DNA of 61,630 bases, filler included, from Sphacelaria rigidula (GCA_964200075.2; 5 parts of 5 records of this genome joined end to end with filler, not necessarily neighbours in it); one strand, 5' to 3'. Counted from the first letter of the whole stretch, positions 3,762 to 24,597 are shown. The notes: a model not told the origin generated them from the letters alone. Numbers and translations are program-made.

Positions 3762-4925
3762 ATTTGTTACTTGCCTAGGTTATTTGACCATTGAGTTTGT
3801 GTCCCTTGCGAGACGGAGCACCATTCCTACTCCTACCAGAGACATCTCCAACATCAGGGCGCTTATTACGTTCCTTCAATAATTTACACGAGAACCTTGT
3901 ACAGATCTTCAACCCTTCCTGTTTCGTCGTCTATGGCCATCATCCATCTGCTAGTATAGCCATCGTTTTCTCGCTCCTGCGATGTACCAAACGAGATCAT
4001 TTCCTCCCTTCGTTAACTTTCCACATTTCCCTCTCTACCACGTCCCGTTCCTGCTTCTGTAGTTCACATTCTGCCACTATTATGAGTTCTACTCTCTATC
4101 GCTTTGCCACAGGGGCAATTCTGTGTATCTACTTCCTCCTCCACGGGGCCACTGGTATATGATATCTCTTTATTCTTCTCTGGCAGATCCAGGCCCCCCA
4201 CCCGAAATCACACTTTCAAGTTTTCGCGTAGTCAATTGGGCCGTGCAGATATGTTTTCATTCATACCCCTCCCTCGTCTACTTAGGTGCTCTTCCTCGTC
4301 TACTTTGCGTCTGAGCGCTTCTCTCCCCCTTGTTCATACCATGTCTCTTACTTTCGTCTTGTACCCTCCACCTTTACCTATGGACATTATCTCGTCCAAG
4401 TTTCCTCCTATTTCCTTCCATACTTTCTCCACTACGCCATCCCATCTTATTCCAGCCTGCCCTTTCGTCATTTTCTTCCATACAGCCTCATCAATTACGG
4501 CCGGCAATTTCGCCCTCGGCATATTTCTTGCGTTATATTGTCATTTCAATTTATCATGTTCCTCTATGTGTTGAGTGGGTACATTTCCGGCTCTGCTCTC
4601 AACATTGTACTACTCGACGTCGTTGAGCATCAAGGCATTTTCCTAGCCGCCGTCATGAGTACAGTTTCTAGCTGCTTCGCCAACTTCGCGTTCCCTTCCC
4701 ATACTTCTCCTGCATCTTCTCGCTTCGGTATAATCACACTCATCGGGACACATATCTTTACCCTAGTATCGACGTGTGAGTCTCCTATTAATAGGGTCAC
4801 GTTCATCTTGCCTATCCATGCCTTATCCTTTCCTACCCAAGAACACGTCCTTTATATCTCTACGCCACGATATGTTTACTGGTCCACGACCAGCAATTCC
4901 TCTTTCTCCACTTCCTTTCAAACTT
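3762..4925 (-). mobile_element. 5'-truncated degenerate LINE (end of RT, C-terminal domain and 3' tail)
   Basis: Minus translation VVDQ*TYRGVEI (RT Y-x-Y-L-G-like motif), KLAKQLETVLMTAARK, RWDGVVEKVWKEIGG, CPCGKAIESRTH, with stops and frameshifts. Short copies of the same 3' tail at about 1230-1290, 1335-1385, 3675-3740, 5545-5720 and 10285-10345. Confidence 0.75.
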
Positions 4926-5723
4926 TACCGGGTTCTCCTTATTTTCGTTACACAACCACCACATCTTGTGAAGGGAAGGGGGGGGGGGGGGGGGGGGGGG
5001 TTGAGCAGGAAAGTAAAAGATGCCCGGGTGCGTAATATTTTTGTGGTTTTGTTTTTTCCCCGGCCAAAAANNNNNNNNNNTCTCCTTTTTTCTCTCTTTC
5101 CTCCACCACCCCCCTCCCTGGTGGGGGGGGGGGGGGGGGGGGGGGGGGGGTGGCTAGCCGTTGAATGCAAGACTGCCCGTTGCCTGAATATCTGCTGGAT
5201 ATCGTATGTACCCTGCCTACACGAGAGAGAGAGAGAGAGAGAGAGGAAGAGACGAATGCTGCAGCTACAATCTTCACGAACTCTTGATGCTACAGAGTAA
5301 TAGGGTATTGGTTGACCTTGACAGTCCTTCTCTTGCTCTACCGCAGTGACCTCTTTTTCCCGGCAGTAAAATACCACCATTTTTCACTCAAGACAAAGAG
5401 TCATTTTTGGTTCTACAGAAGAATTGAAAATAGTTCAATCGCAAATGTTAATTATGCACCTACACATTAATGTTAGGTCCTCGCACAAACTTCACCATGG
5501 CTTCATCACCAACTCATCCCTCCATCATACGAGGAAATAGATGGTGGCCACAGACGGCGAAACAAGAGGGGAATAATATGTATATTTTTTGTGTAATATA
5601 GGGAAGAAAGGCAATGAACGCCCCAATGTTGAAGATATCTCTATTAGGAGTAGGAACGGTGCTCCGCCTCGAAAGGGATTGGTGGTCAGTAGTTTAATAC
5701 GACTAGGGCAAACAACATATGAG

Positions 5724-5793
<70 letters not shown>

Positions 5794-6194
5794 CCCACAC
5801 CCCCCCCGCCTCNNNNNNNNNNAGGGAGGGGAACGGGGGCCCGCCCCCAAGGGGGTGGGTGGTTGAGTTTTTTAAACCGCTAAGGCAAAAAAACCAGAGA
5901 GCCCCCCCCCCCCCCCCCCCCCCGTCACCATTCCCCGCAACTACACGAGACTGTGAAATGGATCATGACCCTGTTTCATTTTCTCTACTATCGTGCCGAA
6001 CACTTACCCTACTAAGAGCAGACTTTCCTAAACAGATAGTTTCGAGTCACAATTGCGGTGTGCTCAGAGAGAGAGATTCGCCGAAAGTTGACTTTTGGAC
6101 GACTGGAAGATGACAACATCTACATGGAGGAAGGAAGTGAACTTGTGCGTGGAGAGGCCACGACAAACCGACGACCGCTGATGCTACTACGCAC

Positions 6195-6314
6195 CTCCAA
6201 GCGCACGAACGGCGCCAGCAGGTCGGGGATTGTAAGGGTGCAGTAGGCCTGAGCATACTCGTCCCCGTGATCCCGCTTCCACTCTTCGAACAGTGCCTTC
6301 ACCGCCGAAAGAGA
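6195..6314 (-). CDS. GCFC2/PAXBP1-like exon (start of GCFC domain)
   Basis: SLSAVKALFEEWKRDHGDEYAQAYCTLTIPDLLAPFVRLE matches the GCFC motif FEaWr..Y..AY..l.lP.l..P.iRl. GAG|gtgcgt donor. Confidence 0.9.
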
Positions 6315-7373
6315 CTTGTTTGGTTTCGTGTGGAGAATGGAAAAAAAAAAAACAGGCGAGTAAAAACAAGGAAGGGAAGATGCATTAGAAGATGATGACT
6401 TCGCACCCACCTGTACCCCCCCCCCCCCTCAAAGGGTTGGCGTCGGTTCGCAATGATGCTGTGAAGTACGCCATTCACTGCGTAAGCTATTATAGGCAAC
6501 CAGATTACCACTCTTACTTCTCGATAGCGTTCTTTTTTTTTCGCGGTAAGCATGATGACATGACGATGCTCGAGCAAGATCATATCGTACGGGATAGGAG
6601 AACCTCAACTTCGCGCAAAGGGTATGATTGCATCACGTAGTATTCAAATGGTGAGACGCCCATGGGGCAGGCTGTCTCTAGAAGCGGCGATATCAGAAAA
6701 TGAAGCACTTCATTCGAGGCTGTCATCCACGTCCAAGATACTTGGTGCGCTTCGAGCCATGAATCTTGGCAGGATACAGGCCACTCCTCATGCAATCCGC
6801 TAAATACATCACGGCGCTTCGCGCTTGGTGATTGATTGTGAGCCTAGTCCGGCGAAAACCCGGCGTGCTCCGTCCCGGTTTTGTAGAGACGCGAGGTCAA
6901 CGGTCTTATGACTACGGCATGCAAGATCATGAGCACACACCCTCCCCCGCCGCCCTCCCTCGCCGACGACAACATGCGTCATGTTCCAAGAACGAAACAA
7001 AGGGTTGATGTGCTTGTACTACCTGCCGCACGATCCTCCGAAAGAGAGAAGGAACATTTTCGTTGCCGATAGGTATGGACTATTGTGTGCGGAGGATGAC
7101 ATATCCAAATATAAAGCGTCAGAAAAAAATGACTCACCCACCGCTTTGGTTATGTGTGACTGGGGGTATTGAGCATCATAGCTGCATGACGAAACGAAAT
7201 CTCGCGAAACAGGAACATATTGCAGCACGATTCTCCGAAATATACCCGAGAACTTCGCAACCGACACAAACATGTCCTGGAGTATGATCGCAACTATAGC
7301 GGCACTGTGCGGCCGAAGGACCGACGCGCGACGCGTTGACGAAAAACGAAAATAACAAAAAAACAGAACCTAC

Positions 7374-9608: not shown

Positions 9609-10519
9609 AAAGGACTCAAGGTACCCTGGCTTCTTGGCACATTTGCGGTACCCAGTACCTCAGGGCACCTCTAACAGAACCCACGGTACCATGGGTTTTC
9701 AGGGTAATTACATTCATGAGTGTACCCCAGAGTACTCGGTGTTCTCACAGGTTCGCAGTCATGAGTACCCGTACCCCGAGCTGTCCGCACCTTTGCAGTC
9801 ACGAATACCCCAAGTTACCTGGGACAGGACCCACGGTACCCTCGGCTCTCAACGTATTTGCAACAACGGGGACCGCAGGGTATTTGGGATAGAACCCAGC
9901 GTCCTTGCATCATGTGGTTACCTGGGCGTGCCCTGTGGGTGATACCGTGATAGTGCACCCCCCCTCCCCCCCCCCATAGCAGCCCTAGAACCGTAACGAA
10001 TGAAATGGCAATATAGAGCACGATAGCTGGTTTCCGATAGCATGAAGCGCCTCATATGAGCGACCCTGGCAAAAACGACCTCAAGCGTGGGAGTTCCCAA
10101 CTACTCCGTGCACTCGGCTTTTGTCATGCTGATTTACATGCAGATTTTGCTTCCTCAAACCAGCCACTTTCCTGCGGGGGGTGTACTTATCATCATCCAT
10201 GAAATCATTGACCTCGCATCCCTACAAATCCTGGACCGAGCACGCCGGGTTTTTGCCTATTCCCTGGGGGAAGGGGGGGACGTACTCATTTGTTGCTTGC
10301 CTTAGTCGTTTGACCATTGACCACGCATCTCTTTCAAGACGGAGGGTAGGCGGGGGGGGGGGGGGGGTCCACGCGGCATCATGCCCAGGATTTCAGGGTT
10401 TTTTGGGTGGCCCGTCCCGAAGCGTTCTGGGGGCTTCTAGANNNNNNNNNNGGGGGGGGGGGGGGTGCGTTTTTCTTTGTGTGTTTGTTTCTCGTGCGGG
10501 TGCGCGCCGGGGCGAGGCA

Positions 10520-10558
<39 letters not shown>

Positions 10559-11441
10559 CTACCGCGGCATCAGTCCCATGTATTCAGCGTTTTTGCGGTG
10601 CCGCGTCCCAGAGCGTACCGGAGGTATCGAAAATCGAAAAAATTGACAATTCCAAGTGTACCGGTAGTATCGAATAAAACAAAATACCGAGCATTCCAGA
10701 GTACAGTACATCAAACATTGAGCCGTCCTTAATACCCGATTTTTACCCTACCTCACCCTCAGCACACTTTTTTTTTTTTTCTGAGGGGGGTTTCCCGAAG
10801 TTTTCGTTCTCACGACATCGAACCACGAAATCACTGTATATATATCAAATGCTTTTTTGCAGGGATTAAACTTCCCGAAGTCTTCCTGAAGTAGTGTTGG
10901 GATGTGTGTACCAGTTTCATCACCTCGGGCGCCAATACTGTGACGGATGACGATACGTAGCGAGGTATATTTAACCCAAATCGATCCGTCGTCAAATTCC
11001 ATGATTGGCACGTACACTTGCATTCATGGAGCCCAAAGCGTATCTCCATCGAAGGCTAAGACCAACCCTAGCCGTAAACACAAGGGAGAACCCTCGGACG
11101 AGAGAGGTTGCTTAGAGAGTGAGTGCTCTGTGCCGGCAAGAGCTCAAAACGGCGCCTGAAAACGCGTGCCAGTCATGCTGGCGAGCACCTGTGCCTGTCA
11201 GCCCCCGAAAGATCCGAATGTGATGGCCTACCCCAAAACAGCAAAATAGTCGATCAACCATGGAAATTTTTACAACGGGGTTGGGCAAAACTTTACCGTA
11301 CGGTCGTCATTGGTTCGGCCGCCCGACGGCATCCTATTTCATTCGAATCACGAGGATTCCTGTTTCTCGAATTTCTGTCCTCGCATTCAGCCAACGATGA
11401 GGGATGATGACTGTACCGCCAACGACCACCCTCACTCTCAC

Positions 11442-12349: not shown

Positions 12350-12419
12350 TCTGGTCCCGTTCCCGTCCGTGGTACCGCGGTGCCTGGTCTGCTGCTGGGT
12401 TGCGTGGCGGGAGGGGGGG

Positions 12420-12633
12420 AACAGGGGAAACGACGGTTTCGGCCGGCGCGGTAAGCTCACAAAGTCGGTAAAATGCGCAGAAGAAGTATCTACGCGATCG
12501 AGGGGCGTTACGCTGACGAAAACGTCATTGGGCACCATCGCTGAAAGTGTGGGGAAAGCCCTTTTATGGGCTTGAACCTTATTTCATTGCGCAACCTCAT
12601 TTTGTTTTTCAACCCCATTTTCGAGAGTCGGCT
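12420..12633. mobile_element. Right arm of a foldback MITE of the 54930-55337 family
   Basis: gtaagctcacaaagtcggtaaaatgcgc...aaaacgtcattgggc...gaaccttatttcattg is near-identical to 55165-55310; ends ...gtcggctg. Confidence 0.7.
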
Positions 12634-13278
12634 GTTGAATGTACAACTCGCACTTCGTGTCTGTCCCGAGCTAGAGCAGGAGCCCAATATAGTAATCTGA
12701 CTCCCGGAATCAAATAAGTAACTCATGGCGTCGGTCGAGATTTCCGTCCTTGACATGGACATAGATTTGGACTTCTCATTTTTCATGGTACTTCAGAATC
12801 ACGATAGGACGCCGCCACCGCTACATGCGACAGAGAACATATACCTCCGTCGCCACAAGAGACGGGAACATGAGAACGGCAGGGTAGATGACACGCTCGA
12901 TCAAAAGCGTTGGTGTTCACCTTCCCCACCCAACCACCTCCCCCTGTACATACCCTCGCGGCAAATGTGGAGGGTCCCCAGGGCTAACTCGTGGGATGTG
13001 ACGTCCGGGCGTCTGCTGAGACGCCGCCCGGGGCAGCCCGAGCGTCACATACGACACCAGAACCGATCCCTAGGTAAGAGCATCTTCAATTTACTATTGT
13101 AGTAACCCCGCGAGCTATTGCAGAAGATGATGATCGCAAGCTCCTCACTGCTTGCTTCCAGGTGATGATTGCGGCTTTCGAACCAAACGCAGGACATGAG
13201 CATGCGTGGAATATATATATATATATAGTCATATGTATGCACAAGATTCCCTGACCCCGGCTCAGTAAACGTCAAATA

Positions 13279-15660
13279 TTGCACAGAACTAAGTTCCTGC
13301 ACACATACGCGTTGTTGCATGTTACGCGGGCAGGTAGTGAAACATCTGCGTATCTACGACTGCCATCCCGCCCAGCACATACCACAAATGTAGCCGAGAG
13401 AACTTCTGGGCCGACAGGCGTAGAACCCGCAGTGTCAATGTCAACCATGAGGGCAATTGCTGGCGGCCACGTCGGCGACGAAGACGCAGTAGGAGAGGAG
13501 CCCAGTCCCCAATCGTGTGGAAAACACAGGGCGATCGCACTGTTCTGTGACTCTCGGGCACCAGGCGCGGTAGTCGATGGTGCACCCATACAAACCGAGG
13601 GGGCGGTGGGTGGGGGCGACGACCGGCGGAGCTCGCAGAGTGAAAAAGTAGAGAGGCGATCGCCCAGGGAAGACCCGACGCACACAGTATCTAGTACCAG
13701 TGCGTCGGAGGTGAATCCACGGGAGCTATCGGCGTCCACGGCGCCGACGACAATCCTCCACGACGTGGGCACGACAACTCGCGAAGGCCGAGGAACTACA
13801 GGCGGGATACCCTATGAGATGGGGAGTTCTACTCCACCTGCCAAAAGAAATAAAAGACGGGCTCCGCCGGGGTCCGGTAGAGGCACACCTCCGCATGCCC
13901 ACATATCGGCGTCAAGGCGGAAGAGGAACATGATCAACCAACCGGATGTGAGTAGCGCATGGGGAACTTGGAATGAGCAGCAGGAGGTTGCATTGCAGCA
14001 CAGGGATAGAGCAAAGGAACATGCGCTGAAGGTACTACATTCTCCTCGGGTGGCTACAACACCCGTAACCCACACATTGCATCGCTTGAGCCTGCGCTTG
14101 GGTTGCCGGACGACTTTTCAACGCCCTCGGGAAACCGCAACAAGCGCCCCGGATCGCCGTGCTCCTCGAAACCAACACCCTCCAACGCTTCGAGACCAAG
14201 ATCGAAGCGGAAAAAAAATGAAGAGGGCTTCTTGTGATTCTGCGCCTGACCTCACCTCAGGAAGGTGTCGAGACGGCGGCAACGCATCTGCGGCGGGGTT
14301 TGAAGACGAGTGGGTTACGTCCATGCTAACGAGTGGAGCTGGCGGCGATGCCATGAGGGATCGGGGAAAGCAAACCTCACCTGCCAAAGGTCGTTATGGT
14401 AGGCATCGACGACACGGTGATGGAACGAGGGTAACGACGCGACGCAGTGGTGAACAGGAGCCTCCCAACAGTCGTGATAGCTGTGTGATGGAGCAGTCGG
14501 CGCCGGCTCACTCGAAACCTGTTAGTGGAAGCAGCCGCCGTCGACGACCGAAGCGGGTCTGCCGTCGCGAGGAGTGCGGCATCACGTACATTCTCGTCGA
14601 AGGCCAGTGGTATATGTGCCCGTCTTGTGGTCAAACTCACGACCCTGCATCGCGTCTGTGCGCGGCGTGCCATCGACCCGGGCCCGGCGAAGGAAAAAGC
14701 TGGCCTCATCTCGGCCCCGCGCGGGTTGCAGAGGCGGAGGTATTCCTCCAGTGTGTGGATGGCAGTAGCGCGCGCCCCGCTGTGCTTGTGCAGAGCTACC
14801 AATCTAGTTCCGATTGCTTGTGTAGCCGGAATGATTGCTTTCTGCCCTCCTTCGAGCGGTACAGACGCAACAGCGATTGGCAAAAGACCAAGTCCACTCG
14901 TGCGCGTTGTCCTACGCCTCCAACGGTAGACGTCACTCCTGATCCTGCCCCTGCAGACCCGGGCTTCGTCGTAGAAGTACGCGAGAGAGGAATAGCGAAC
15001 CTTGAGGCGGGGCGAATAGTGAGCCTGGGGGAGGTCCAATCGTGGCTGACAGAAGCTAGGGAGGCCTCACGGGTCCGGACTGTCGGCGACCGGCGCAACC
15101 GGGATCAGGCTATGGAGATTTTCGGCACGGTAGTAGAGGGCGGCACAGCCCGCGCGAAGATGAAAGAGGTGAGCGGGGTTGGGGAAGCCGCAGGTGATTA
15201 CCGACGAAAGTCCGTGTATCTACTGCCTTCGGCGGTGGCGCCCGAGGTAGCAATGGCAGTTGATATGGATCTTAGAACTATGCGCGCCAGGGTACAAGAA
15301 CTCGAACGTACGGTCTCTCTCCTGGACGCCCAGCGCCACAATGGTCCGACACTCACGTCCGCGTTTGAGCGCGTCAGAGCTGAAGGGTCCGCGGAGGATA
15401 AACGGGCGTTGGTGAGAGCGGCCGGATCTATTGTCAGGAAGGACATCGAAGGTGCGATTGAACTGCATCACGTGTCGGGGAACGCGAGTGAAAAATATGC
15501 GGCCGACTTGGAGAGAAAGATCGAGCTATGCAACATTTCCTGGAGCACGATACACAGTCGATACTGTTGGACTTGCTTGACAGTATGTGCCATGTGGTGG
15601 TACCAGCTGATGACCCCGGGTCGGGGCTCGCTGCCGGGGGGGGCGCGACAACAACAATGA
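13279..15660 (+). pseudogene. N-terminal part of the Academ-like protein (low complexity, RanBP2-like C4 zinc finger, coiled coil)
   Basis: 793-aa ORF with WYMCPSCGQTHDPASRLCAACHRP at about 14608-14680; appears to frameshift into the 15528 ORF near 15525. Confidence 0.6.
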
Positions 15661-18652
15661 CAGATGTGCCAAGTACCAGCGCTATGGGGGAGTCAAGTGA
15701 CAGCGCAACGACTCATAGATCGACAGAACAGGAGAAGGCTTTGCGGAAGAAGAAGAGGAAGAGAGAGAGGCAGCTTGAGAGGCTTTATATGCTAGTGCAA
15801 AATGTCCTGAAAACTGTTCTAGGTCGGAAATTCAGGGCGATGCATGACTTCAGTTTGGCGCAGATGTTGAAAACGCACGGCACACCCGTGGCGGTCATAG
15901 ATTACGTTGCCGCTCACGGCTTCTGCATGACCGAGTCTATGCGATACAAGCGCGAGCAGTACTTCGTGAAGTTGAGGTTGGACAAGCATCTGATAGCCCT
16001 TGCGTTAAGAGCTGCTGCGATCCCTTGGGACAGCTGCGGCTTTCGGGTCACGATGGCTGTTAGCGGGGGGGATGTGCATGTGTGTGCTGTGGCTGCCACT
16101 TGCGTGGCGGTGGAAACCCCGTGTGGTGACCTGTCTCTCGTCCAGAACCATCGCAAGCAAGATCAGCTCGTGGCCGCAGGTGTGACGACGGGACCACAGT
16201 GGCACATTGATGGCGAGCAATGAGACAAGTACCTCTCCGTGTTCGACGAAGAAGCTTTTCGATGCACCGTGGGAAGGATCGTAGGCGAGGGTGGCTCCAT
16301 CGACACTTGCTTGGAACTCGAACTTCGACAGGTGAGATGAGTTATCTGTGCCTGTATGTTGTGTTTGAATACCTGTGCAAAGTCGATTTCTTGATCTCCG
16401 GCGGCTGCGATTGGGTGTGCCGCCAATCCACTGTAGTGTCGTCTCTCGCGTGTCAGTACCAGCTTTGCACCCCCACAGTCGCAGTGTCCCGCTAATCCAC
16501 ACACAGTACCTGCCATGAATTCTGCGGGAGTAGGGCGGGTTGGATTGTCCTGTACATGTCAATTCGTCGCCTCCACCGAGGGATCACTCTGTCGCCTTCG
16601 CCCCGCGTGACTATGTCGCAACACCAACGTTGGCAGCATAGCACGAGTTGTGTGGGAAATGATTGTCGAAACGCAATATGCTGATGTGCATGGTTGACAA
16701 AAGCGAAACTACGGCATGATCCCTTGGCCCGGCGGATACTGTCACCACAGGGTAGGGATTTACGTCATGATTTGAAAATACACAACGCGGTGCAACAGCG
16801 ACCTCATCAGTCCTCTCTCCGCCGCGCTGTTGAAATTGCGAGGCAGGCAGTACCTACGATGCAGCGGGAGCCCCAGGTGTTCAAGTACCTTTTCATGCAG
16901 TTAGAAAGCACGAAGAGCTGGGCTGACTCGAAAGTAGCGAATGACCGCATTGCTGACATACGCCGCGTGGGTGAGAGGGGCGCGCCTGCTGCGTGTATGG
17001 TCGCCGGCGACGAGGAGACGTTTCGGTTTATGTACCACCTCATTAGGAGTAACCCCCGCGAATATCAATGGCTCCGGATATACGTGGGTGACTGGCACCT
17101 CCTTTATCACATGGCGAAGGCGACCATGAAGCGAGTTTGGGGAGCGGGGACAGAATACGTAGCGGAGGCGCTTGGACTGGACGGGAGGAAGCCATTAGAG
17201 GCTAGCAACTACCGTGTCGCGCACCACACCATTTGCGTGTTCTTCGAATCCATGTGGGACAAAATCGTGGCCATGTACTACTCCGAGCGTGGATCCAGTA
17301 TGGAAGACACCAACGCTGAGGGTGCGCCGGGGTCGGCTGCTGAAGCAGCTGCTGTCGCCACAGTGCCAGTGCCGGACCCCGCGGAATCAGCCGCCCCGCT
17401 GCAGGGCGCCGCGGGAGGAACTCCTGTACCGCCGAACGCCCCCACCGGGGTACAACGTGCGCACTCCACCCCCGTACCGCCCATGCGGAATGAGCAAAGG
17501 GCCGCACCTCCATTCAGTAATAACCTGGCATGCTCTTCTCTGGCTGCGGGTTCTGCGCGGCCGACGAACATCATCAGCACGCCTCAGCGACCATTGCGAT
17601 CGCCAAGCCCTCCGCCTTTCGATCCCATAGTTACCGAGGAGATCCGGTGTCGTGGGGAGGATTATTCCTGGCAGGTAACGCATGGCATCGCGGGCCTCGA
17701 TGCACCGATGTTCTGCGTCTTCCACGCCAGTGCGGGACTGGTGGACCTCCGAGAATCCGCACCTGTGCAGTTCGTGTTCACCGCCGACAGCGGAAGAGCG
17801 CCGGCGGGCGCCGGGGCCGCGGAAGTGGCAGGCGGCCCTGTCGACGGAGCATCGGCCGCCGCCAGAAAGGAGTCATCCCCTACCGACTGCGCAGAACCAG
17901 CCGCGGCGGGTGGTAGTCGCAGGGACTCCACAGCCGACATGGCATCAGTGGTAACCCCTTGCACTGGGCCAGCGGAAGCGGCGGCCGAGGGTCGGCGACG
18001 CGAACATGGTAACGATTATGATCCCTTCGATAAAACCGTGGAGCAGTTAGCACAAGAGTTCCGCGACATAGCGAACAAGGTGAAGAAACATGCGAGGAAG
18101 GAAGATATCCCTGCTATTCGAGCTTGGGTTCGGGCGCGTGCAACAAACCACGAGAGCTTCCAAGTGTGGGAGAGCTTCGTCCTCTACCATCATCCAGCGT
18201 ATATGGGATTGCGGACGGACCTGCGCACGCGAAACTTCCTCCTTCGACTGGCAGGCCTTCGCCGGATGGCAGACATATTTTGTGTGACCGGTAAAGACCG
18301 TTACCAGTGGCTGGTGGTCCTTCACCTCATGCATATGGCGCAGATGCCGGGATCCGACTTGAAGGTCGTGGAGCAGTTGTTTTCCGTGACCTTGCGAGAC
18401 AACAGGAGTTGGGCGAGAGTGGGGCTCGACGAGCGGCAGGAGGTGGCGAACAGGTTCTTCAAGAAAGTCGCAAGCAAGAAGACCTCTACTGCGGTGGAGA
18501 AGCTTGCTCCTATCGCGGAATGCCGAGACGCGGCAGAACAACAAGTGAGGGAACAACTGTTCTTCGGGGAGGGCGCAGGGCGGAACCCCACAAGAGGCTA
18601 CACGGTACTCCTGCCTTCACGCCGGCTGGCAAAGAGATTCTGCATGCGCTAG
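15528..18652 (+). pseudogene. Academ/DUF6589-like DDE transposase core, with inferred intron 16332-16750
   Basis: WDSCGF..G..H (first D), GDEET (second D), GDWH, LDERQE (E). In-frame TGA at 16221 with open frame continuing to CAG|gtgaga; acceptor ccacag|GGT is phase 0. Confidence 0.7.
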
Positions 18653-21600
18653 ACGGGCGAGTGGTCAGTGGTCCGCATGCAGCGGCCGTTCTGTCGTGCT
18701 CCGAAGTATCTCAGAATAAGATCCAGGATAATATCGCCTGTTACGTGTTGGGGGACAAGACCAAAAAGGGCGCAACAAAGGAAAAGGTATACACGATCCC
18801 GTCCCGGAATGGTGCAGTCAAACCCACGAACACGCAGGGCAGAAGCTCGGCGTTAAAGTCCAACACGAAGAACAATACGATGTACACGCAGGAGCTGCTG
18901 ACCACATTGCGAGGGATCGTGGGGGCGCCCAATATTTCCCAGGAGGAGAAGGAGAGGGTGCTTCTCAAGCTAGGGGCTTCTGTCCCGTTCAGCCTCCTGA
19001 ATTCTAAAGGAGGTGAGAGATGTATTGAATATCCGTCTGTGGGGACGTAGCGATGAGGGGGGGGGGGGCGGGGACGAACACGGATGGCACCGCCGCCTCG
19101 GCATCAGGCAGGAGATTACAGCCGTGGTACACCGGTGCTCCGAATTTTATTAAGTTTCCACAGCGAGTACTCGAAGCAGACGTGAAACAAAGAAAGCATA
19201 CCCCCCGTGACGCACGTTTACGTGCCGCCCATCCTACCCCGTTGGCCGCTTGATTCCTGCCCGCCGTGTTGCCTGCTCAGGTTTAGGGCACTCGAACAAA
19301 AGTCTCGCCGTGCAATGGATAAGATCTGTTTGCCCCGATGCAGAACAGCCGCATCCGTACTACATGGCGCACGGGCATGCCGTCGACTATGCCGTGGAGG
19401 CGCACAGGGAACCTCCTCAGGCCGTCACAGAGGGTGGCTACCCGGCAGTCGAAGCCTACCACGCGGCGAAGGTGCGCACTGAGTGGACGAACGAGAAGAC
19501 AGAGCTGGTTGTGCTGGCGTACGACAACCCTGACACCGTGGGAATTATTAAGGCGCACGAGCAACGAGGGCGAACAGAGAGGATCGAAAAAGGTGGCACA
19601 AAGTTCAATCCAACATCCACGAAGCCTCTTCCCCGCGGGGCACACTTTCAGAGTCTGCTTCGCGACAAGAACAAACTTGTCCAAAATTACCTGGCCACCG
19701 GTGCATTCAAGCGGATACTTCTCGAGAACCATAAAGGACCGTTGATCGCCACTCACGCGGCCAGCATGCCGCCTGTTGTCAGTGGCTTCACGCCAACGGC
19801 TGCGGCAGGAGTAGGAGGAGGAAAGCACGTAGGACGGGAGCGGGGAGGGGGGGTGGCGACGACGGCGGCCGCCAGGTGCGAGCCTGTGGTGGACACGCAG
19901 TCCGGCGCCGCCGCGGACAGTGAGGGGGAAGCAGGGCCTGCCAACAGACGTCAAGACGCAGCGCTGAGAAGTGGGGGGGGGGGTTGGTAGGACATACTGC
20001 CAACGCGAGCGTGGTGGGTGACAGGGTGCGAAGAACCGCCCAGCGGTTTGCGGCGGCGGCGGGATCAGGCGAGCAAAGGGGCGACAGAGCGGCGTCGGTG
20101 ACGGGAGACGCGACGGTAGGCGCCGGTGTTGTTGCTTGCGGTCTGAGGGGTGCGACCCCGCAGTGGAACGCGGCAGCGATGATGGGCGAGCTACCGTGGG
20201 GGGGAGCAGGGGGGAAACCGCAGGGGCAACTACACGGGCAAGTGTTGTCGGCGGCGGGCTCGCGGTTGCGGCCAGCCAGTGGAATTTACCGTCTGCATCA
20301 AGCCGACGGGGGGAGAGGGGACCGGCGATGCCGCCGGCGGCAGCAAGTGCGGCACGCGGACACGTCGACAACGAAGGTATGGCAGAAGCGGCCCCGAGGA
20401 CATATCTTGCGGCAGTGAGGGGCCAGCGCTCAAGCGGGGCGGCGCCGGTGCCGACGACGGCGCCCAACACTAGTCGACGCTCCCGTGCAGGGGTTACGGA
20501 GATTCCGCGATCGTATCTTGCCGCGTTTACAGGCTGCGACAGGGGGGGGGGGAGCGGGGGCAGGCGGATCCCGCGCACATGGTGACGTGCTCCCCGGCCC
20601 TTCTCCTCGTGCCTCGCAACGTCACCTGTTGTGGTGGCGTGATGGCAGTGGGCCTGATATGAGTATCCACAGCGCACCTGGACCCGGCATAGGTGAGGGA
20701 GAGATGTCCACGGTCCACTTCATCATACACTCCGGAACCTTGTTCGGGAAATCCCTGAAGAAGTGGCTCGTGACTTCCAGCGACACTGATCAGTGGATTA
20801 TTGTACTTCTGGCGATGTCCTCCGGGTGTATCAAGCCGCATGGCGCAGGCGCCAAGCTAGTCACTGTCAAACGCATCGTCAACGGTGGCTCCCAGTACAT
20901 ATTGGTGAACCGGGAGTGTACAATGCGATCGAGAACCTGAGGGACGGGAGCGAGAGTGCGTGGCCGCCCAACGGGCAGTACAATTGGCTGACACCATCAA
21001 TCAAGGTGTCACTGTTCGTTTTGACTATCTGCTAGCCGGGTGCGATTTTTTACCACATGTGTCCGGGATTCCTTTCCTCGAGATGTGGGATTTCGTTCTG
21101 AAGGCCCTTCGCACGCCGAACCTCTTCACGAAAGCGATACTAGAGCACAAAGATGGGAGGCTCAGAGTGGAAATGGGCGAGGGCGTGAAACTGCTGGCCA
21201 CGGTTTTCTTCTTCGGGTATGAAAACGCTTTCGCACAAGTTGCCACGGATCCTAGAACTCTGTTCACCACGTGCGGACAAGACTTGGCATCGTACATGAA
21301 CAAGATCCGCTTGTGTATCACCACAGCGCATGGGCATCAGCCTTCCCGTTGCTGCCCAGACTTGGACGCCTGTAAGAAGCACGTCAGTAAGTTCGATGCG
21401 GTGTTCGAATACTGGGGGGGAAGTTTCCTACGCAGCATGCCCCCAGTAAACTTCAACGGACGCGGGTGGGGCATAGAACCTGAGAGGAGGACTCACCACA
21501 AGGGTGGTGTAAAACCGTCGAGCACAGCGGGGGTGGAGCTTTCACGCGATAACATTGTGGTGTACTTGTCGAGTCACACATACATCGACACATCCGGAAA

Positions 21601-21720
21601 CGTGCAAACACTCAAATGTGGATGCAACCCGTAAAGGGCGGCGTCAAAACACAGATGCCGGAGTTGCAGGTATTTGGGGAACTGCACTCTGAGCTGCGGT
21701 TGCCAGGGTCGCTGCTTCCT
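18590..21720 (+). pseudogene. XPG/PIN-like nuclease and C-terminal Cys-rich finger of the Academ-like protein, with intron 19013-19280
   Basis: Splicing G|gtgaga...ctcag|GT yields PFSLLNSKGGLGHSNKSL. Then AVD, AYD..K, GEGE, SDTD, GCDF and KCGCNP*..HRCRSCRYLGNCTLSCGCQGRC. Frameshifts near 18590, 19980, 20915 and 21020. Confidence 0.7.
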
Positions 21721-24597
21721 GCCTCCGCCCCCTTCACGAGCGGCCGCCACGAAACCCGCTGAGGAGACCGGCGACGGACAGAGCGGTGCACGTGGCCAAT
21801 CGCGAAACGGAAGAAGCCGATCAGAAGCGAAGCATTCGATGGATGGGTCGACTGCATCACGTGGAATGGGGGCGGCGTCTCGAGCAAGCAGCGCAGCAGG
21901 AACACGTGTTGATATGACTGATGGTGAGGAGCCTCGGCGCGGCGCCGGGGGGGAGGTGGTGGGAGGAGCGCACTTGGGATCAGATCGGATCAGTGAAACC
22001 GCCGACGTAGATGGCCGCGCACGCGAGCAATCGCGCAACGGGAAAGCCCGCTCAACAGCGAAGTATGCAAGAGGCGAGTCGGCTGCATCACGCGGAAGGG
22101 GCGCGGCAAGTGGAGCGAGCAACGCCAGGGGCACCTGTTGGTGTGACCGATGGTGAGGGACGTTACTGGCCCGGCGGCGGGGAGCCGGGGATAGGGGGGG
22201 GCGTATCCGGGGCAAGATCCCATGGGTGGCTACTTTTGCGACGGCGGATAAGATGAACCCGTCAGACGCAAGTCCAACTCTGCAGCCGGGATCTGGATCG
22301 GAGATTCTGATTTAGAATGCAGCTGGTCGGCAGGGGACGACGACAATGAGGAAGATTTCGCGTTCTGACTTGAGTTCGCGGATAATATTGGGGCCGTTTT
22401 TTTCTCTAGATAAATTGTGCAAACGTTTCTGTACAAGTCAAGGTTGTTTTTTCCACATTGTAGTCATGAGCCGTGTCCCATGTACATGGCCATGATGGCT
22501 TGTGAATATGTGCGGTGCACCGTGGGGTGCAAACGTTTATTGGGGGTGATCTGGCTACGCCCGCCAGCGAATCGCCTGTGGTGCATGAGGCTACATGGTA
22601 ATGTCAATGAAGTGAGTGTTTCAACGCAAGACCATTAATCTGACCGTCACCATACTATGCCAGTCAACCTTTCGGTTTGCCGTGCAGCACTGCCAACGCT
22701 CGCGCCTCAACGCTATGGCGTTCGCGCAAGGAGACAAGTGCCGGGAATCATACGTATCACCATTGTGCTGAACGGTCCGACGAAAACATCGGGTGGTATT
22801 CTTCGCCACACTCTCGCCGACATCCTTGATACTGCACCATGTGCACCGAACCGGAGGGTCGTCTTACCAACGGTCTCGCGCATCACACATCGGGTCGATT
22901 TTTGCCACGTTTCATTTAAACCGCATACTATAGCAAACACAACATGTTGAACGGCTGTTTTTTTCGCCCTTCTCCGTTTTGGGCGTAAGTGATGATTGGG
23001 AGGATGTTGCCTCCTCGGTATGCCTTGCGTTCATCGTCGGCAAATCTGTCTCATCACATGAACGTATTGAGGTGCTTGTCTCTTGTTTCTTTTGCCGAAG
23101 TGGTATGTTCGTCCAAGAACTATGAACATCAATCGAGTTTAGGATAAAGTGGTGGTCAGGTGTAGAAATCAATCCATGACAGGTATCAACTCGTGTCGAC
23201 TGTTCTTCGACAAAAATGCTAGCCCAGTCGACACAATTCTGCGAGCACCGGAAAATGCGAACATGACACGGATTGTCCCACTGGACTTGACCACTCCGGC
23301 AGATGAGTGTATGTTTAAAAAAAAAAAAACTTCCATTACCAGAGAACATTAAGGTGTCCTCGAGTTTTTTTTCGTACAGAACAGGAAGCCACTATAAAGA
23401 TGAACAAAACAACTCGAGGACGCAAAACAACACAGATGAACAAAACAAATAGTGCTACGACCTGGGCCAGCGGTAAATCCCGCATTTGCATGTCACACCA
23501 TAACTTCTCAAGTTTGTCAAACCAGCCCGACTTGAATATATCGGTGTGACCTGCAGACCAATGTGGAAACACACTGGGCCTCCACTGAAAGAAGAAAAAT
23601 AATGAAAGAAATGTACGGCATAATGTACCACCCAACCGACTGAACAAAAAAAAGGAATCCGTCGGGGTTTGCACTCGTGACCTTCATTATTGGGGTCAAC
23701 TGCGTCACTTGGATGAAGGGAGCGGAGCAGTGCCATACGAAAAGTTGGATGCTGCGCCAAATTTCTGGAAGTTCTGGCCGCAAGTGCACCAGGATGTCTT
23801 CCAATGAAGGACGCAAAACTATGGTAGCGATGCCCACGTATTTATGTATTTTCACGGAGTTACAACATTCTTCTAGTTTTTGCAGAAATTTCAGATCGCT
23901 CCAAAAATGTGTTTTTTTCCTTGGTATTCCTGGGAAGGTTATGCATAGTGATGGTACAAATTTTGTGTCAAAATTTCAGCGCCCAACGCTTCGGATTACC
24001 AGCCGCCCGGCCCGGATACATTCGTAAATCACTGTCAGCTGCCCCATTTCGTACAGTATTTTTTTGACGCTGTTGGTTTGCCATGAGAACTGACCTCATA
24101 CGCGGAGGGGTCACGGCCTCTCTGACGCCAGTATGCGTGTGTTTGCACTCTATGCTTTGGGCAGCAACCTCGCGCGCTACCGCAGCTATGACGGCATGCA
24201 CACGTTTGAACTATCTTCTCTACTGACGGGCAGCGCTCTTGTTTCCATGAAAGAGTGCGGGAGAATATATGTACGTACGACAACGTACACACCTCAACGC
24301 GGCACAAGTGCCGCCGGCTTATTTTGGATATCTCCTCTCTTTGTATACTCCGGAGTATCTGACACGATTTCCCACCGCATCTGATGTGTCCCGAAACCCC
24401 CCGCCGAGAGGGCAATATCTCAACACACACAGCAGCTGCAGACACAAATCAAATTGCTATGTGTAGCTAAGACGCATAGCTATCAGTCATCTACGTTGCG
24501 GCTGCGCATACCCTTCTCGTAACGACAAATAACAGCCGATCCTAATTTTTGGGGTTGAAACAAAATATGAGGTTGAAGTCCCATCCCTCCACTGCAG

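What the first reader, a model, noticed from the sequence alone, without database searches (positions are those of the whole stretch)
13279..22156. Intron-containing AcademX-like transposon (DDE transposase + XPG/PIN nuclease + Cys finger) in a probable brown alga
Seen: eight consecutive plus-strand ORFs that join into one very long protein after about six frameshift/stop repairs and two GT-AG introns. Motifs occur in the order WD..f...G..H, GD..T, G.WH, R..N....L, D...E..NR..K, then PIN-type D, YD..K, EGE, SDTD, GCD, GW and a Cys-rich finger. Established: this domain order defines Academ elements of the XPG-bearing (AcademX) type. From memory, Academ is described from animals, fungi and red algae; I do not recall a stramenopile report. 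Inference: this is a divergent stramenopile Academ lineage coupling a transposase to a flap/5' nuclease. The host assignment is also inferred.
Basis: partly seen in the sequence, partly recalled or inferred. Interest (0 to 1): 0.85.

Follow-up and report, generated by a model that had tools for sequence, protein, structure and literature searches.

The report
Decayed AcademX-like transposon in brown alga
This is a broken copy of a large, many-copy DNA transposon whose single giant protein joins a transposase to a flap-type nuclease; the element type is already known, but brown seaweeds are a host group where it seems not to have been described.

Summary
Eight plus-strand ORFs between 13.3 and 22.2 kb are collinear pieces of one very long protein. 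Gene models from Ectocarpus and Sphacelaria join them in the same order. The closest named proteins are from Sphacelaria rigidula, at 94%, 89%, 85% and 77% identity on different contigs, so the host is a brown alga.

The protein has a DUF6589-type DDE transposase, an XPG/FEN1-like nuclease with all five acidic motifs, and a CXC cysteine cluster.

Contigs from public runs show thousands of diverged copies and several internal-deletion forms, so this is a mobile element, not a host gene.

The window's copy is dead. It has at least seven frameshifts and four premature stops.

I find four GT-AG introns, not two.

No TIRs or TSDs were found. No direct comparison with Repbase Academ was possible.

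Verdict: an AcademX-like element, a new member of a known kind, of moderate interest.

The parts
12759..13073 (+). 5' non-coding region of the repeated unit (left end not located), with the first exon up to the donor at 13074
   Evidence: Summed contig depth here is high (8900 in X1). Internal-deletion joints start at 12842, 13342, 13520, 13576, 13652 and 13779. The donor TAG|GTAAGA is at 13074.
13074..13333 (+). Intron A (260 nt, GT..AG)
   Evidence: The joint 13071>13332 (cut +2) appears in 2 contigs of X6 and 1 of X7, both runs guessed to be RNA. It appears in none of the contigs of X1 or X2. Sequence.
13438..15657 (+). N-terminal region (frame 1, first ATG at 13438) with a zinc-ribbon-like Cys pattern at 14614-14670; coding status unverified
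   Evidence: Open frame. Pfam gives only Zn_Ribbon_1 at E 0.27. No relative among the stored proteins. Contigs of the RNA?-runs cover 13795-16038. A frameshift near 15500-15660 is needed to join it to the next block.
15840..16331 (+). Transposase, N-terminal block (frame 3) with the first acidic motif WDSCGF (16026-16043) and a premature stop TGA at 16221
   Evidence: tblastn of P0174 gives 82% identity. The paralogue has W at the stop and WDNCDF in the motif. Stop confirmed.
16332..16846 (+). Intron B (515 nt, GT..AG, phase 0)
   Evidence: P0174, P0081 and P0130 are continuous across it. The ends are CAG|GTGAGA and GGCAG|. Depth in the RNA?-runs is 4-5 in bin 16440-16848, against 20-98 in the bins beside it.
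16847..17288 (+). Transposase core (frame 2): GDEET 17003-17023, GDWH 17087-17098
   Evidence: Pfam DUF6589 at E 5e-4 on this ORF. phmmer finds 332 relatives. Motif places.
17289..18071 (+). Probable intron C (783 nt, GT..AG, phase 1, in frame and open), or alternatively an Ala/Pro-rich linker
   Evidence: It is spliced out in gene model P0174 and absent from P0151, P0153, P0003 and P0002. Joining the ends gives SE-P-NKVKKHARKED against P0174's SE-P-DKVKIHARKED. RNA?-run depth is 0-17. Against: ORFs P0001, P0013, P0037 and P0044 match it in frame at 46-58%.
18072..18595 (+). Transposase, C-terminal block (frame 2) with DERQEVANRFFKK at 18425-18466
   Evidence: tblastn of P0174. E, N and K of this motif are invariant in alignment A1.
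18577..19012 (+). Linker block (frame 1), reached through a frameshift near 18596
   Evidence: P0174 matches at 87% identity in frame 1. Other copies carry extra letters at 18596 (table 5).
19013..19280 (+). Intron D (268 nt, GT..AG, phase 1)
   Evidence: P0173, P0174, P0151 and P0036 are continuous across it. The ends are GGAG|GTGAGA and CTCAG|.
19281..19948 (+). Nuclease, N-terminal half (frame 2): first Asp (HAVDYAV 19376-19396) and second motif (AYDNPDTVGIIK 19517-19552)
   Evidence: These align with the FEN1 motifs AIDA and VFDG..P..K in the profile-profile alignment.
19949..20517 (+). Variable G-rich spacer holding at least two frameshifts (frame 2 to 3 to 1)
   Evidence: P0171 maps in frame 3 at 20328-20546 and then in frame 1 from 20518.
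20518..21023 (+). Nuclease, central part: GIGEGEM 20686-20706 and TSSDTDQW 20773-20796; 2-nt insertion at 20914 shifts frame 1 to 3
   Evidence: P0170 at 88%. Other copies lack 2 letters at 20914 (table 4). Aligned to FEN1 SEGEA and SQDYD.
21026..21631 (+). Nuclease, C-terminal part (frame 2 after a 1-nt loss at 21024): AGCDFLP..SGIPF (H3TH-like) at 21035-21055, helical region, GRGWGIE at 21458-21478
   Evidence: P0170 at 89%. Other copies have one extra letter at 21024/21025. Aligned to FEN1 GTDFN.GI.GIGPKTA and to EXO1 ILSGCDYLSSLRGIG.
21617..21715 (+). CXC-type Cys cluster, interrupted by a premature TAA at 21632
   Evidence: P0170 has E where the window has the stop. The cluster aligns with the TCR/CXC domain of the animal relatives. 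TCR was found in 7 of 24 members. The A1 profile hits LIN54 CXC weakly, E 0.14.
21716..22368 (+). C-terminal tail with a two-fold internal repeat, a frameshift near 22122-22170, stops at 22192 and 22249, and the natural stop TGA at 22366
   Evidence: tblastn of P0170 to its last residue (...EEDFAF, 22348-22365). Other copies have +CG at 22122.
22369..23455 (+). 3' non-coding part of the repeated unit (right end not located); another repeat begins at 23456
   Evidence: Summed depth is 3800-6500 in X1. 71 contigs have loose ends before 23456, where depth jumps tenfold.

Best explanation
The stretch from about 12.8 to 23.4 kb is a dead copy of a large cut-and-paste DNA transposon family of a brown alga. 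The closest relatives are in Sphacelaria rigidula.

Intact copies encode one protein of roughly 2,400 residues from an intron-bearing gene. Its parts, in order, are:
- a poorly conserved N-terminal region with zinc-ribbon-like motifs;
- a DDE transposase of the DUF6589 type;
- an XPG/FEN1-like structure-specific nuclease that keeps all the acidic metal-binding residues and a helix-3-turn-helix motif;
- a CXC (Tesmin/LIN54-like) cysteine cluster.

This is the architecture published for the nuclease-bearing branch of the Academ superfamily (AcademX).

Likely mechanism (inferred, not shown):
- The DDE domain cuts and transfers the 3' ends of the element.
- The fused nuclease cuts the other strand, or trims the 5' flaps at the ends or at the gapped donor. 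TnsA does this for the 5' strand beside TnsB in Tn7.
- The CXC cluster and the zinc ribbons bind DNA.

What is shown: homology, collinearity, many diverged copies, internal-deletion derivatives, splicing of the first intron, and decay of this copy.

What is inferred: catalysis, the division of labour between the two nucleases, and the identity of DUF6589 with the Repbase Academ transposase.
For: Collinearity:
- P0153 and P0151 match o2, o4, o5, o6, o7 and o8 in order.
- The S. rigidula models P0174, P0173 and P0170 do the same at 70-89% per block.

Host:
- P0170 94%, P0171 85% and P0172 77% identity. These were 3 of 3 hits among 188 candidates.
- P0174 89% and P0173 65%, 2 of 2 hits.
- 3 of the 4 named clusters among the 10 looked up are Ectocarpus.

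Transposase:
- phmmer finds 332 relatives at E<=1e-3.
- 18 of 24 long relatives pass the DUF6589 gathering score, and 23 of 24 hit it at E<=0.01.
- The motifs GD..T, GDWH and DE..E..N...K are invariant or nearly so.

Nuclease:
- 14 long relatives share the C-terminal domain.
- The A1 profile's best PDB hits are human EXO1. That is 5 of the 10 sequences listed, best E 0.0028, with two collinear stretches.
- hhalign of a 23-row domain alignment against 9 archaeal FEN1 gives score 47.6, probability 80.6%, E 1.3e-5 and 221 columns, with all five acidic motifs in register.
- Two reversed and 20 column-shuffled controls score at most 21.8.
- Three bacterial 5'-3' exonucleases score 18.6 (0.4%), while FEN1 against those three scores 101.
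- The Atlas lists Pox_G5 (0.85) and XPG_I (0.81) among the nearest named clusters. These are leads only.

Mobility:
- 12,177 (X1) and 10,481 (X2) contigs lie on the 12.2-kb piece at 85-100% likeness.
- Internal-deletion joints are seen at 13520>20466 (all four runs), 13576>21339 (three runs), and 12842>21173, 13342>20483, 13652>20823 and 13779>19424 (X1).
- The 5' and 3' parts are deeper than the middle.

Decay: the window's lesions at 20914, 21024, 18596 and 22122 are absent from other copies, and the stops are sense codons in paralogues.

Lineage: the 5 named brown-algal rows lie on one side of a branch with SH-aLRT 97-98, apart from the 4 named animal rows (quick tree of 54 rows).

Against: - No terminal inverted repeats or target-site duplications were found. 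blastn-short and a 16-mer scan gave only chance-level pairs (26 pairs with 12 or more of 16 matches, about 20 expected) and none with a flanking duplication of 3 nt or more. The ends of the element are not located.
- The only clear inverted pair (12592-12636 / 24531-24575) belongs to an unrelated, far more abundant short repeat.
- The window's own transposase ORF scores below the DUF6589 cut-off (19.3 against 27 bits), as do P0174 (23.4) and P0153 (22.3).
- No member hits Pfam XPG_N or XPG_I (0 of 24 at E<=5). One hits 5_3_exonuc_N at E 0.096.
- A profile of brown-algal sequences alone finds no nuclease in the PDB.
- The animal-only profile reaches only 44.5%, and FEN1 trios give 18-67%.
- phmmer of two ORFs against the PDB found nothing.
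- No Academ reference sequence was compared. The link between DUF6589 and Academ is in none of the papers I could read.
- The first acidic motif is degenerate in this copy (WDSCG against WDNCD).
- The first ORF has no detectable relatives.
- Depth sums of contigs are not copy numbers (note).
Confidence: 0.8

Rival explanations
1. The element is a real transposon, but DUF6589 elements with a fused FEN-like nuclease are a superfamily distinct from Academ as defined in Repbase. The likeness to AcademX would then be one of architecture only.
For: No Academ reference was compared. A 2017 survey states that the Academ RNase H-like domain had no detectable Pfam match (passage in PMC5751038), and a 2025 pipeline still built its own Academ profile (passage in PMC12973397). 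No paper in the library links DUF6589 with Academ.
Against: DUF6589 entered Pfam after 2017 by my recollection, so the 2017 statement does not exclude identity. The published description of AcademX (a nuclease-encoding branch) fits. The named relatives are animals such as amphioxus, a crinoid and an annelid, a host range recalled for Academ. Both DUF6589 and Academ are reported from rust fungi.
Confidence: 0.1
2. The ORFs belong to an expanded host gene family, a domesticated transposase-nuclease, and not to a mobile element. The window holds one pseudogene of that family.
For: No TIRs or TSDs were found. The gene has several introns and is covered by contigs of runs guessed to be RNA. Public annotations treat the relatives as ordinary genes.
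Against: More than 10,000 contigs at 85-100% likeness cover the piece in each of two DNA runs. There are many internal-deletion forms that join the 5' and 3' parts, and the ends are deeper than the middle. Paralogues at 65-94% lie on different short contigs. Gene models in Ectocarpus are fragmentary. The copy shows heavy decay.
Confidence: 0.05
3. The stretch is part of an integrated giant virus (phaeovirus-like), which are common in brown algal genomes.
For: Brown algal genomes hold many viral insertions, including in Sphacelariales (passage in 10.1101/2024.02.19.579948). There is a very weak EsV_1_7_cys hit, E 0.2, inside the probable intron C. The nearest named Atlas clusters with nuclease families are viral (scores under 0.9).
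Against: A scan of IMG/VR with the family alignment found no relative; 5 pattern matches were found and none was confirmed. The relatives are spread over animals. No viral marker gene lies on the 12.2-kb piece. The gene has spliceosomal introns.
Confidence: 0.02

Closest known systems
AcademX, the nuclease-encoding branch of the Academ superfamily of eukaryotic DNA transposons (Kapitonov and Jurka 2010; Kojima 2020, Mob DNA 11:15; neither text was held, so I rely on the passage in PMC10045372 and on recall)
   Same: One very long protein with a DDE transposase followed by an XPG-type nuclease. No helicase. A large element. Relatives in animals.
   Different: The host is a brown alga and the sequences form their own branch. 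The 3-4 bp TSD reported for AcademX could not be checked because the ends were not found. The gene has four probable introns. The N-terminal 740 residues have no detectable relatives.
Pfam DUF6589 (PF20231)
   Same: The transposase core of 18 of 24 long relatives passes the family cut-off. The window's ORF matches profile positions 105-207.
   Different: The brown-algal members, this copy included, score below the curated cut-off, at 19-24 bits against 27.
XPG/Rad2 family nucleases (FEN1, EXO1, XPG, GEN1)
   Same: The order and spacing of the acidic motifs match: D; D..P..K; E.E; S.D.D; G.D plus a Gly-rich helix-3-turn-helix. The best PDB hit is EXO1. Profile-profile match to archaeal FEN1 is 80.6%. 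The domain is closer to FEN1 than to bacterial 5'-3' exonucleases.
   Different: The similarity is too remote for the Pfam models (0 of 24). A long disordered insert sits between the second and third motifs. The domain is fused to a transposase and a CXC domain. Many animal relatives have Glu, not Asp, in the first motif.
Tn7 TnsA/TnsB (a functional analogy only; recalled, apart from the mention in PMC3627910)
   Same: A DDE transposase works with a second, unrelated nuclease that would cut the other strand.
   Different: TnsA is a restriction-enzyme-like protein on a separate chain. Here the second nuclease is FEN-like and fused. There is no homology.

Membership tests
AcademX (Academ superfamily) | Transposase homologous to the Academ DDE transposases of Repbase / Yuan and Wessler 2011 | not testable with these tools
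   No reference sequence or profile is held. As a proxy, the core belongs to DUF6589 through relatives that pass its cut-off. No paper read links DUF6589 to Academ.
AcademX (Academ superfamily) | XPG-type nuclease encoded in the same protein, C-terminal to the transposase | tested here: met
   Collinear in the window and in 14 long relatives. hhalign to FEN1 gives 80.6%, E 1.3e-5, with controls at most 21.8 against 47.6. EXO1 is the best PDB hit.
AcademX (Academ superfamily) | No helicase (which would mark AcademH) | tested here: met
   No helicase family appears in the 9 ORFs, the 8 flanking ORFs or the 24 long relatives.
AcademX (Academ superfamily) | Target-site duplication of 3-4 bp | tested here: inconclusive
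   The ends were not located. No candidate inverted pair has a flanking duplication of 3 nt or more.
AcademX (Academ superfamily) | Terminal inverted repeats | tested here: inconclusive
   Only chance-level pairs lie between 12600-13075 and 22366-23470. Other copies' DNA could not be fetched.
Cut-and-paste DNA transposon in general | Many copies, with non-autonomous internal-deletion derivatives | tested here: met
   12,177 and 10,481 contigs were laid. Six different deletion joints link 12.8-13.8 kb to 19.4-21.3 kb, one of them in all four runs.
Pfam DUF6589 (PF20231) | Score at or above the gathering threshold (27 bits) | tested here: not met
   Window ORF 19.3 bits, E 5e-4. P0174 23.4 bits. 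Homology is transitive through phmmer hits that pass, for example P0106 at 40.3 bits.
XPG/Rad2 nucleases (Pfam XPG_N PF00752, XPG_I PF00867) | Match to the family models | tested here: not met
   0 of 24 members at E<=5.
XPG/Rad2 nucleases (Pfam XPG_N PF00752, XPG_I PF00867) | Seven conserved acidic residues in five motifs plus H3TH, in order | tested here: met
   The window pieces carry D (19376-19396), D..K (19517-19552), E.E (20686-20706), D.D (20773-20796) and GCD plus SGIPF (21035-21055). They are aligned to the FEN1 invariants D27, D80, E152, E154, D173, D175 and D236 of A4.
XPG/Rad2 nucleases (Pfam XPG_N PF00752, XPG_I PF00867) | PIN-like FEN fold | not testable with these tools
Tesmin/TSO1 CXC domain (PF03638) | Match to the family model | tested here: inconclusive
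   7 of 24 relatives match (best E 2.5e-5). P0170 and the window do not match at E<=0.1. Their nine Cys align with the animal CXC columns.

The most novel reading that the evidence does not exclude
Brown algae harbour their own, so far uncatalogued lineage of AcademX-type transposons. The gene is intron-bearing and transcribed. In Sphacelaria the paralogues have long intact reading frames and there are many deletion derivatives, so the family may still be active. This would extend the Academ superfamily to stramenopiles and offer a native cut-and-paste element for brown-algal genetics.
Probability: 0.45. Interest if true: 0.45.

Novelty: new member of a known kind. Interest (0 to 1): 0.35.

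Why it matters
Academ is among the least studied DNA transposon superfamilies, and the role of its fused nuclease is unknown. A brown-algal lineage would widen the known host range. It shows that the transposase-nuclease-CXC fusion is old and stable across very distant eukaryotes.

It also explains a set of 'unnamed' or misnamed gene models in brown-algal annotations. One example is the E. siliculosus protein labelled as similar to a solute carrier. These should be masked as repeats.

If intact copies are active, they could serve as a mutagenesis tool in a group with few genetic tools. The window's copy itself is dead and has no function.

Tried and rejected
- Own-genome and relatives searches: no genome is held for this window.
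- The Atlas could not read the first ORF.
- phmmer of o8 and o6 against the PDB gave no hit.
- A brown-alga-only profile against the PDB gave only a chance ribosomal-protein hit.
- A search with the P0153 nuclease region at near lengths returned only 2 fragments that match its first 75 residues.
- The inverted pair 12592-12636 / 24531-24575 was considered as TIRs of a 12-kb element. I rejected it. It lies in a short repeat whose summed depth is about 100 times that of the element, some copies lack exactly that 49-nt unit, and no TSD flanks it.
- My impression that the ORF at 23644-24027 looks like an integrase was not borne out. No Pfam hit came up for 8 flanking ORFs.
- Expression: no listed holder is on record as RNA. 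X6 and X7 are only guessed to be RNA. The parts without cover in them (17258-18484) are not used as evidence of silence.
- Joints for introns B, C and D were not among the 15 joints shown; 241 more were not shown.
- Papers: Kojima 2020 and Yuan and Wessler 2011 were not held. One broad search was wasted on unrelated stramenopile papers, and one matched 'academic'.
- A scan of viral contigs found no relative.
- The careful tree search did not finish, so the quick tree is reported.

Full report
**Setting.** The window is not one locus. It is five pieces of about 12.25 kb joined by N44-TTAATTAATTAA-N44 spacers. The finding lies in the second piece, 12350-24597, and only that piece is its context. 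GC is 58-61% from 14 to 22 kb and 49-52% on either side.

**Observation.** A phmmer search with the 655-residue ORF (16685-18652) against 1.84 billion representatives found 332 proteins at E<=1e-3, 128 at E<=1e-10 and 28 at E<=1e-30.

Of the ten clusters I looked up first, four carry names: three are Ectocarpus and one is amphioxus. Two Ectocarpus proteins match six of the window's ORFs in the same order. They are P0153 (CBJ31386, 1480 aa) and P0151 (804 aa).

Searches with two nuclease pieces found Sphacelaria rigidula proteins at 94, 85 and 77% identity and at 89 and 65% identity. They lie on different short contigs. So the ORFs are pieces of one gene, the host is a brown alga, and the gene has several diverged paralogues.

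**Gene structure.** tblastn of the Sphacelaria models gives the following path.

| Segment | Frame / type | Notes |
|---|---|---|
| 15840-16331 | frame 3 | TGA at 16221 where the paralogue has Trp |
| 16332-16846 | intron B | CAG\|GTGAGA ... AG |
| 16847-17288 | frame 2 | |
| 17289-18071 | see below | |
| 18072-18595 | frame 2 | |
| near 18596 | frameshift | |
| 18577-19012 | frame 1 | |
| 19013-19280 | intron D | G\|GTGAGA ... CAG |
| 19281-19948 | frame 2 | |
| 19949-20517 | G-rich spacer | at least two frame changes |
| 20518-20913 | frame 1 | |
| 20914 | 2-nt insertion | |
| 20916-21023 | frame 3 | |
| 21024 | 1-nt loss | |
| 21026-22132 | frame 2 | TAA at 21632 where the paralogue has Glu |
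| near 22122-22170 | frameshift | |
| 22171-22368 | tail | stops at 22192 and 22249; natural stop at 22366 |

Contigs of public runs show that other copies lack the 2 nt at 20914, carry one more letter at 21024/21025, and differ at 18596 and 22122. These lesions therefore belong to this copy.

The stretch 17289-18071 has GT..AG ends. It is spliced out of model P0174 and is absent from P0151, P0153, P0003 and P0002. Joining its ends reproduces the paralogue's sequence (SE-P-NKVKKH against SE-P-DKVKIH). ORFs called on other contigs (P0001, P0013, P0037, P0044) do match it in frame at 46-58%. I rate 'intron' at about two in three and 'variable linker' at one in three.

A further intron, 13074-13333, is seen as a GT..AG joint in three contigs of the two runs guessed to be RNA, and in none of the two DNA runs.

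The first ORF (ATG at 13438, to 15657) has no detectable relatives and only a weak zinc-ribbon hit. Joining it to the rest needs a frameshift near 15500-15660.

**Transposase.** The window's ORF hits Pfam DUF6589 below threshold (E 5e-4, 19.3 bits). Of 24 long relatives, 18 pass the gathering score and 23 hit at E<=0.01. In a 14-sequence alignment, the motifs DN.D...H, GD..T, GDWH and DE.HE...N...K are invariant or nearly so. The window keeps all of them except part of the first (WDSCG against WDNCD in the paralogue).

**Nuclease.** Fourteen long relatives share a C-terminal domain downstream of DUF6589. They include proteins of amphioxus, a crinoid and an annelid.

- Single sequences hit neither the PDB nor Pfam XPG models (0 of 24 at E<=5; one weak 5_3_exonuc_N hit).
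- A profile of whole proteins finds human EXO1 as the best PDB match. EXO1 makes up five of the ten sequences listed (best E 0.0028). There are two collinear stretches: the first two motifs and the GCDY/H3TH motif.
- A profile of brown-algal sequences alone finds nothing.
- Structure prediction was off, so I fetched nine archaeal FEN1 genes and compared profiles.
- The whole-protein alignment gave 56% probability over 87 columns.
- A realigned 23-row domain alignment gave score 47.6, probability 80.6%, E 1.3e-5 and 221 columns, with all five acidic motifs in register.
- Two reversed and twenty column-shuffled controls scored at most 21.8.
- Three bacterial 5'-3' exonucleases scored 18.6, although FEN1 matches those same three at 98%.
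- With only three FEN1 rows the probability fell to 18-67%. With animal rows only it was 44.5%.

The likeness to the XPG/FEN1 family is therefore real but remote. The window's pieces keep every acidic residue. The Cys cluster aligns with the Tesmin/TSO1 CXC domain of the animal relatives.

**Mobile element or gene family?** I laid four public runs on the 12.2-kb piece at 85% likeness or more.

- 12,177 and 10,481 short contigs were placed in the two DNA runs, spread over all likeness classes.
- The 5' part (12.8-14.0 kb) and the 3' part (20.5-23.4 kb) are several times deeper than the middle.
- Six different joints link 12.8-13.8 kb directly to 19.4-21.3 kb. One is present in all four runs and another in three.

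This is the pattern of a cut-and-paste transposon with internal-deletion derivatives. The tool warns that these depths are not copy numbers, so I give none.

I could not find the ends. The only clear inverted pair (12592-12636 / 24531-24575) sits in an unrelated short repeat about a hundred times deeper. Scans for short TIRs with a flanking duplication gave chance-level results. A different repeat starts at 23456.

**Rivals.**
- A viral origin has no support. No relative was found in IMG/VR and the gene has spliceosomal introns.
- A domesticated host gene family does not fit the deletion derivatives or the decay.
- The serious rival is one of naming. DUF6589 elements might not be Academ in the Repbase sense, because I could compare no reference.

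**Comparison with what is known.** The passage I could read says that AcademH and AcademX differ in TSD length (9-10 bp against 3-4 bp) and in the enzyme they encode, a helicase or a nuclease (PMC10045372). The original papers were not held. The architecture here matches AcademX, and no helicase is present.

A quick tree of 54 of the 159 rows that matched places the five named brown-algal rows on one side of a branch with SH-aLRT 97-98. The 54 rows are those covering at least 300 profile positions. The four named animal rows and two groups of unnamed origin lie on the other side. The careful search did not finish.

**Novelty.** The searches gave the following results in the held library.

| Search terms | Papers | Relevance |
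|---|---|---|
| Academ + Ectocarpus | 1 | irrelevant |
| Academ + algae | 23 | no brown-algal genome paper in the listing |
| Academ + Phytophthora | 9 | fungal papers |
| Academ + stramenopiles | 2 | no explicit report in the passages read |
| Academ + XPG | 0 | none |

The brown-algal genome preprint never uses the word Academ. Repbase, Dfam, supplements and Kojima 2020 were out of reach. So 'unreported' is likely but not shown.

The element type itself is known and this copy is dead. I file it as a new member of a known kind, of moderate interest.

Noticed in passing
window 12350-12640 and 24211-24597: A very abundant short repeat, with summed contig depth 7.4e5 and 3.5e5 in run X1. That is about 100 times the depth of the transposon. 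Its 45-nt core makes the inverted pair 12592-12636 / 24531-24575, and some copies lack exactly a 49-nt unit (joint 12587>12637). It may be a MITE or a satellite.
   Followed up: partly
window 23456-24210: A second abundant repeat (depth about 4e4) starts sharply at 23456, where 71 contigs have loose ends. None of its ORFs hits Pfam.
   Followed up: partly
window 19403: In both runs guessed to be RNA, a contig carries telomere-like (CCCTAA)n letters directly before 19403. This could be a truncated copy at a chromosome end or a chimeric contig.
   Followed up: no
window 14614-14670: The first ORF has Trp then C-x2-C-x10-C-x2-C. This spacing is like a RanBP2-type zinc finger (pattern recalled). 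The N-terminus of E. siliculosus P0153 has a similar CxxC pattern. Pfam gives only Zn_Ribbon_1 at E 0.27.
   Followed up: partly
protein P0153 (E. siliculosus CBJ31386.1): This public gene model is named 'similar to solute carrier family 35, member F4'. It is in fact a transposase-nuclease protein of this family. The name is probably a leftover of a merged or wrong annotation.
   Followed up: partly
proteins P0143, P0109, P0131 (animal and unnamed relatives): Some relatives carry an OTU cysteine protease domain N-terminal to DUF6589. The brown-algal members lack this extra module.
   Followed up: no
window 10347-10366 and 10520-10558 (neighbouring piece): There are runs of 16 to about 36 G, within a 93-nt direct repeat 191 nt apart (10341-10433 / 10532-10624, 75% alike).
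   Followed up: no
window 19283-20719, minus strand: A 478-residue open frame lies antisense to the nuclease region. Other long ORFs occur in all frames of the G+C-rich spacer, so open frames alone are weak evidence of coding in this stretch.
   Followed up: no
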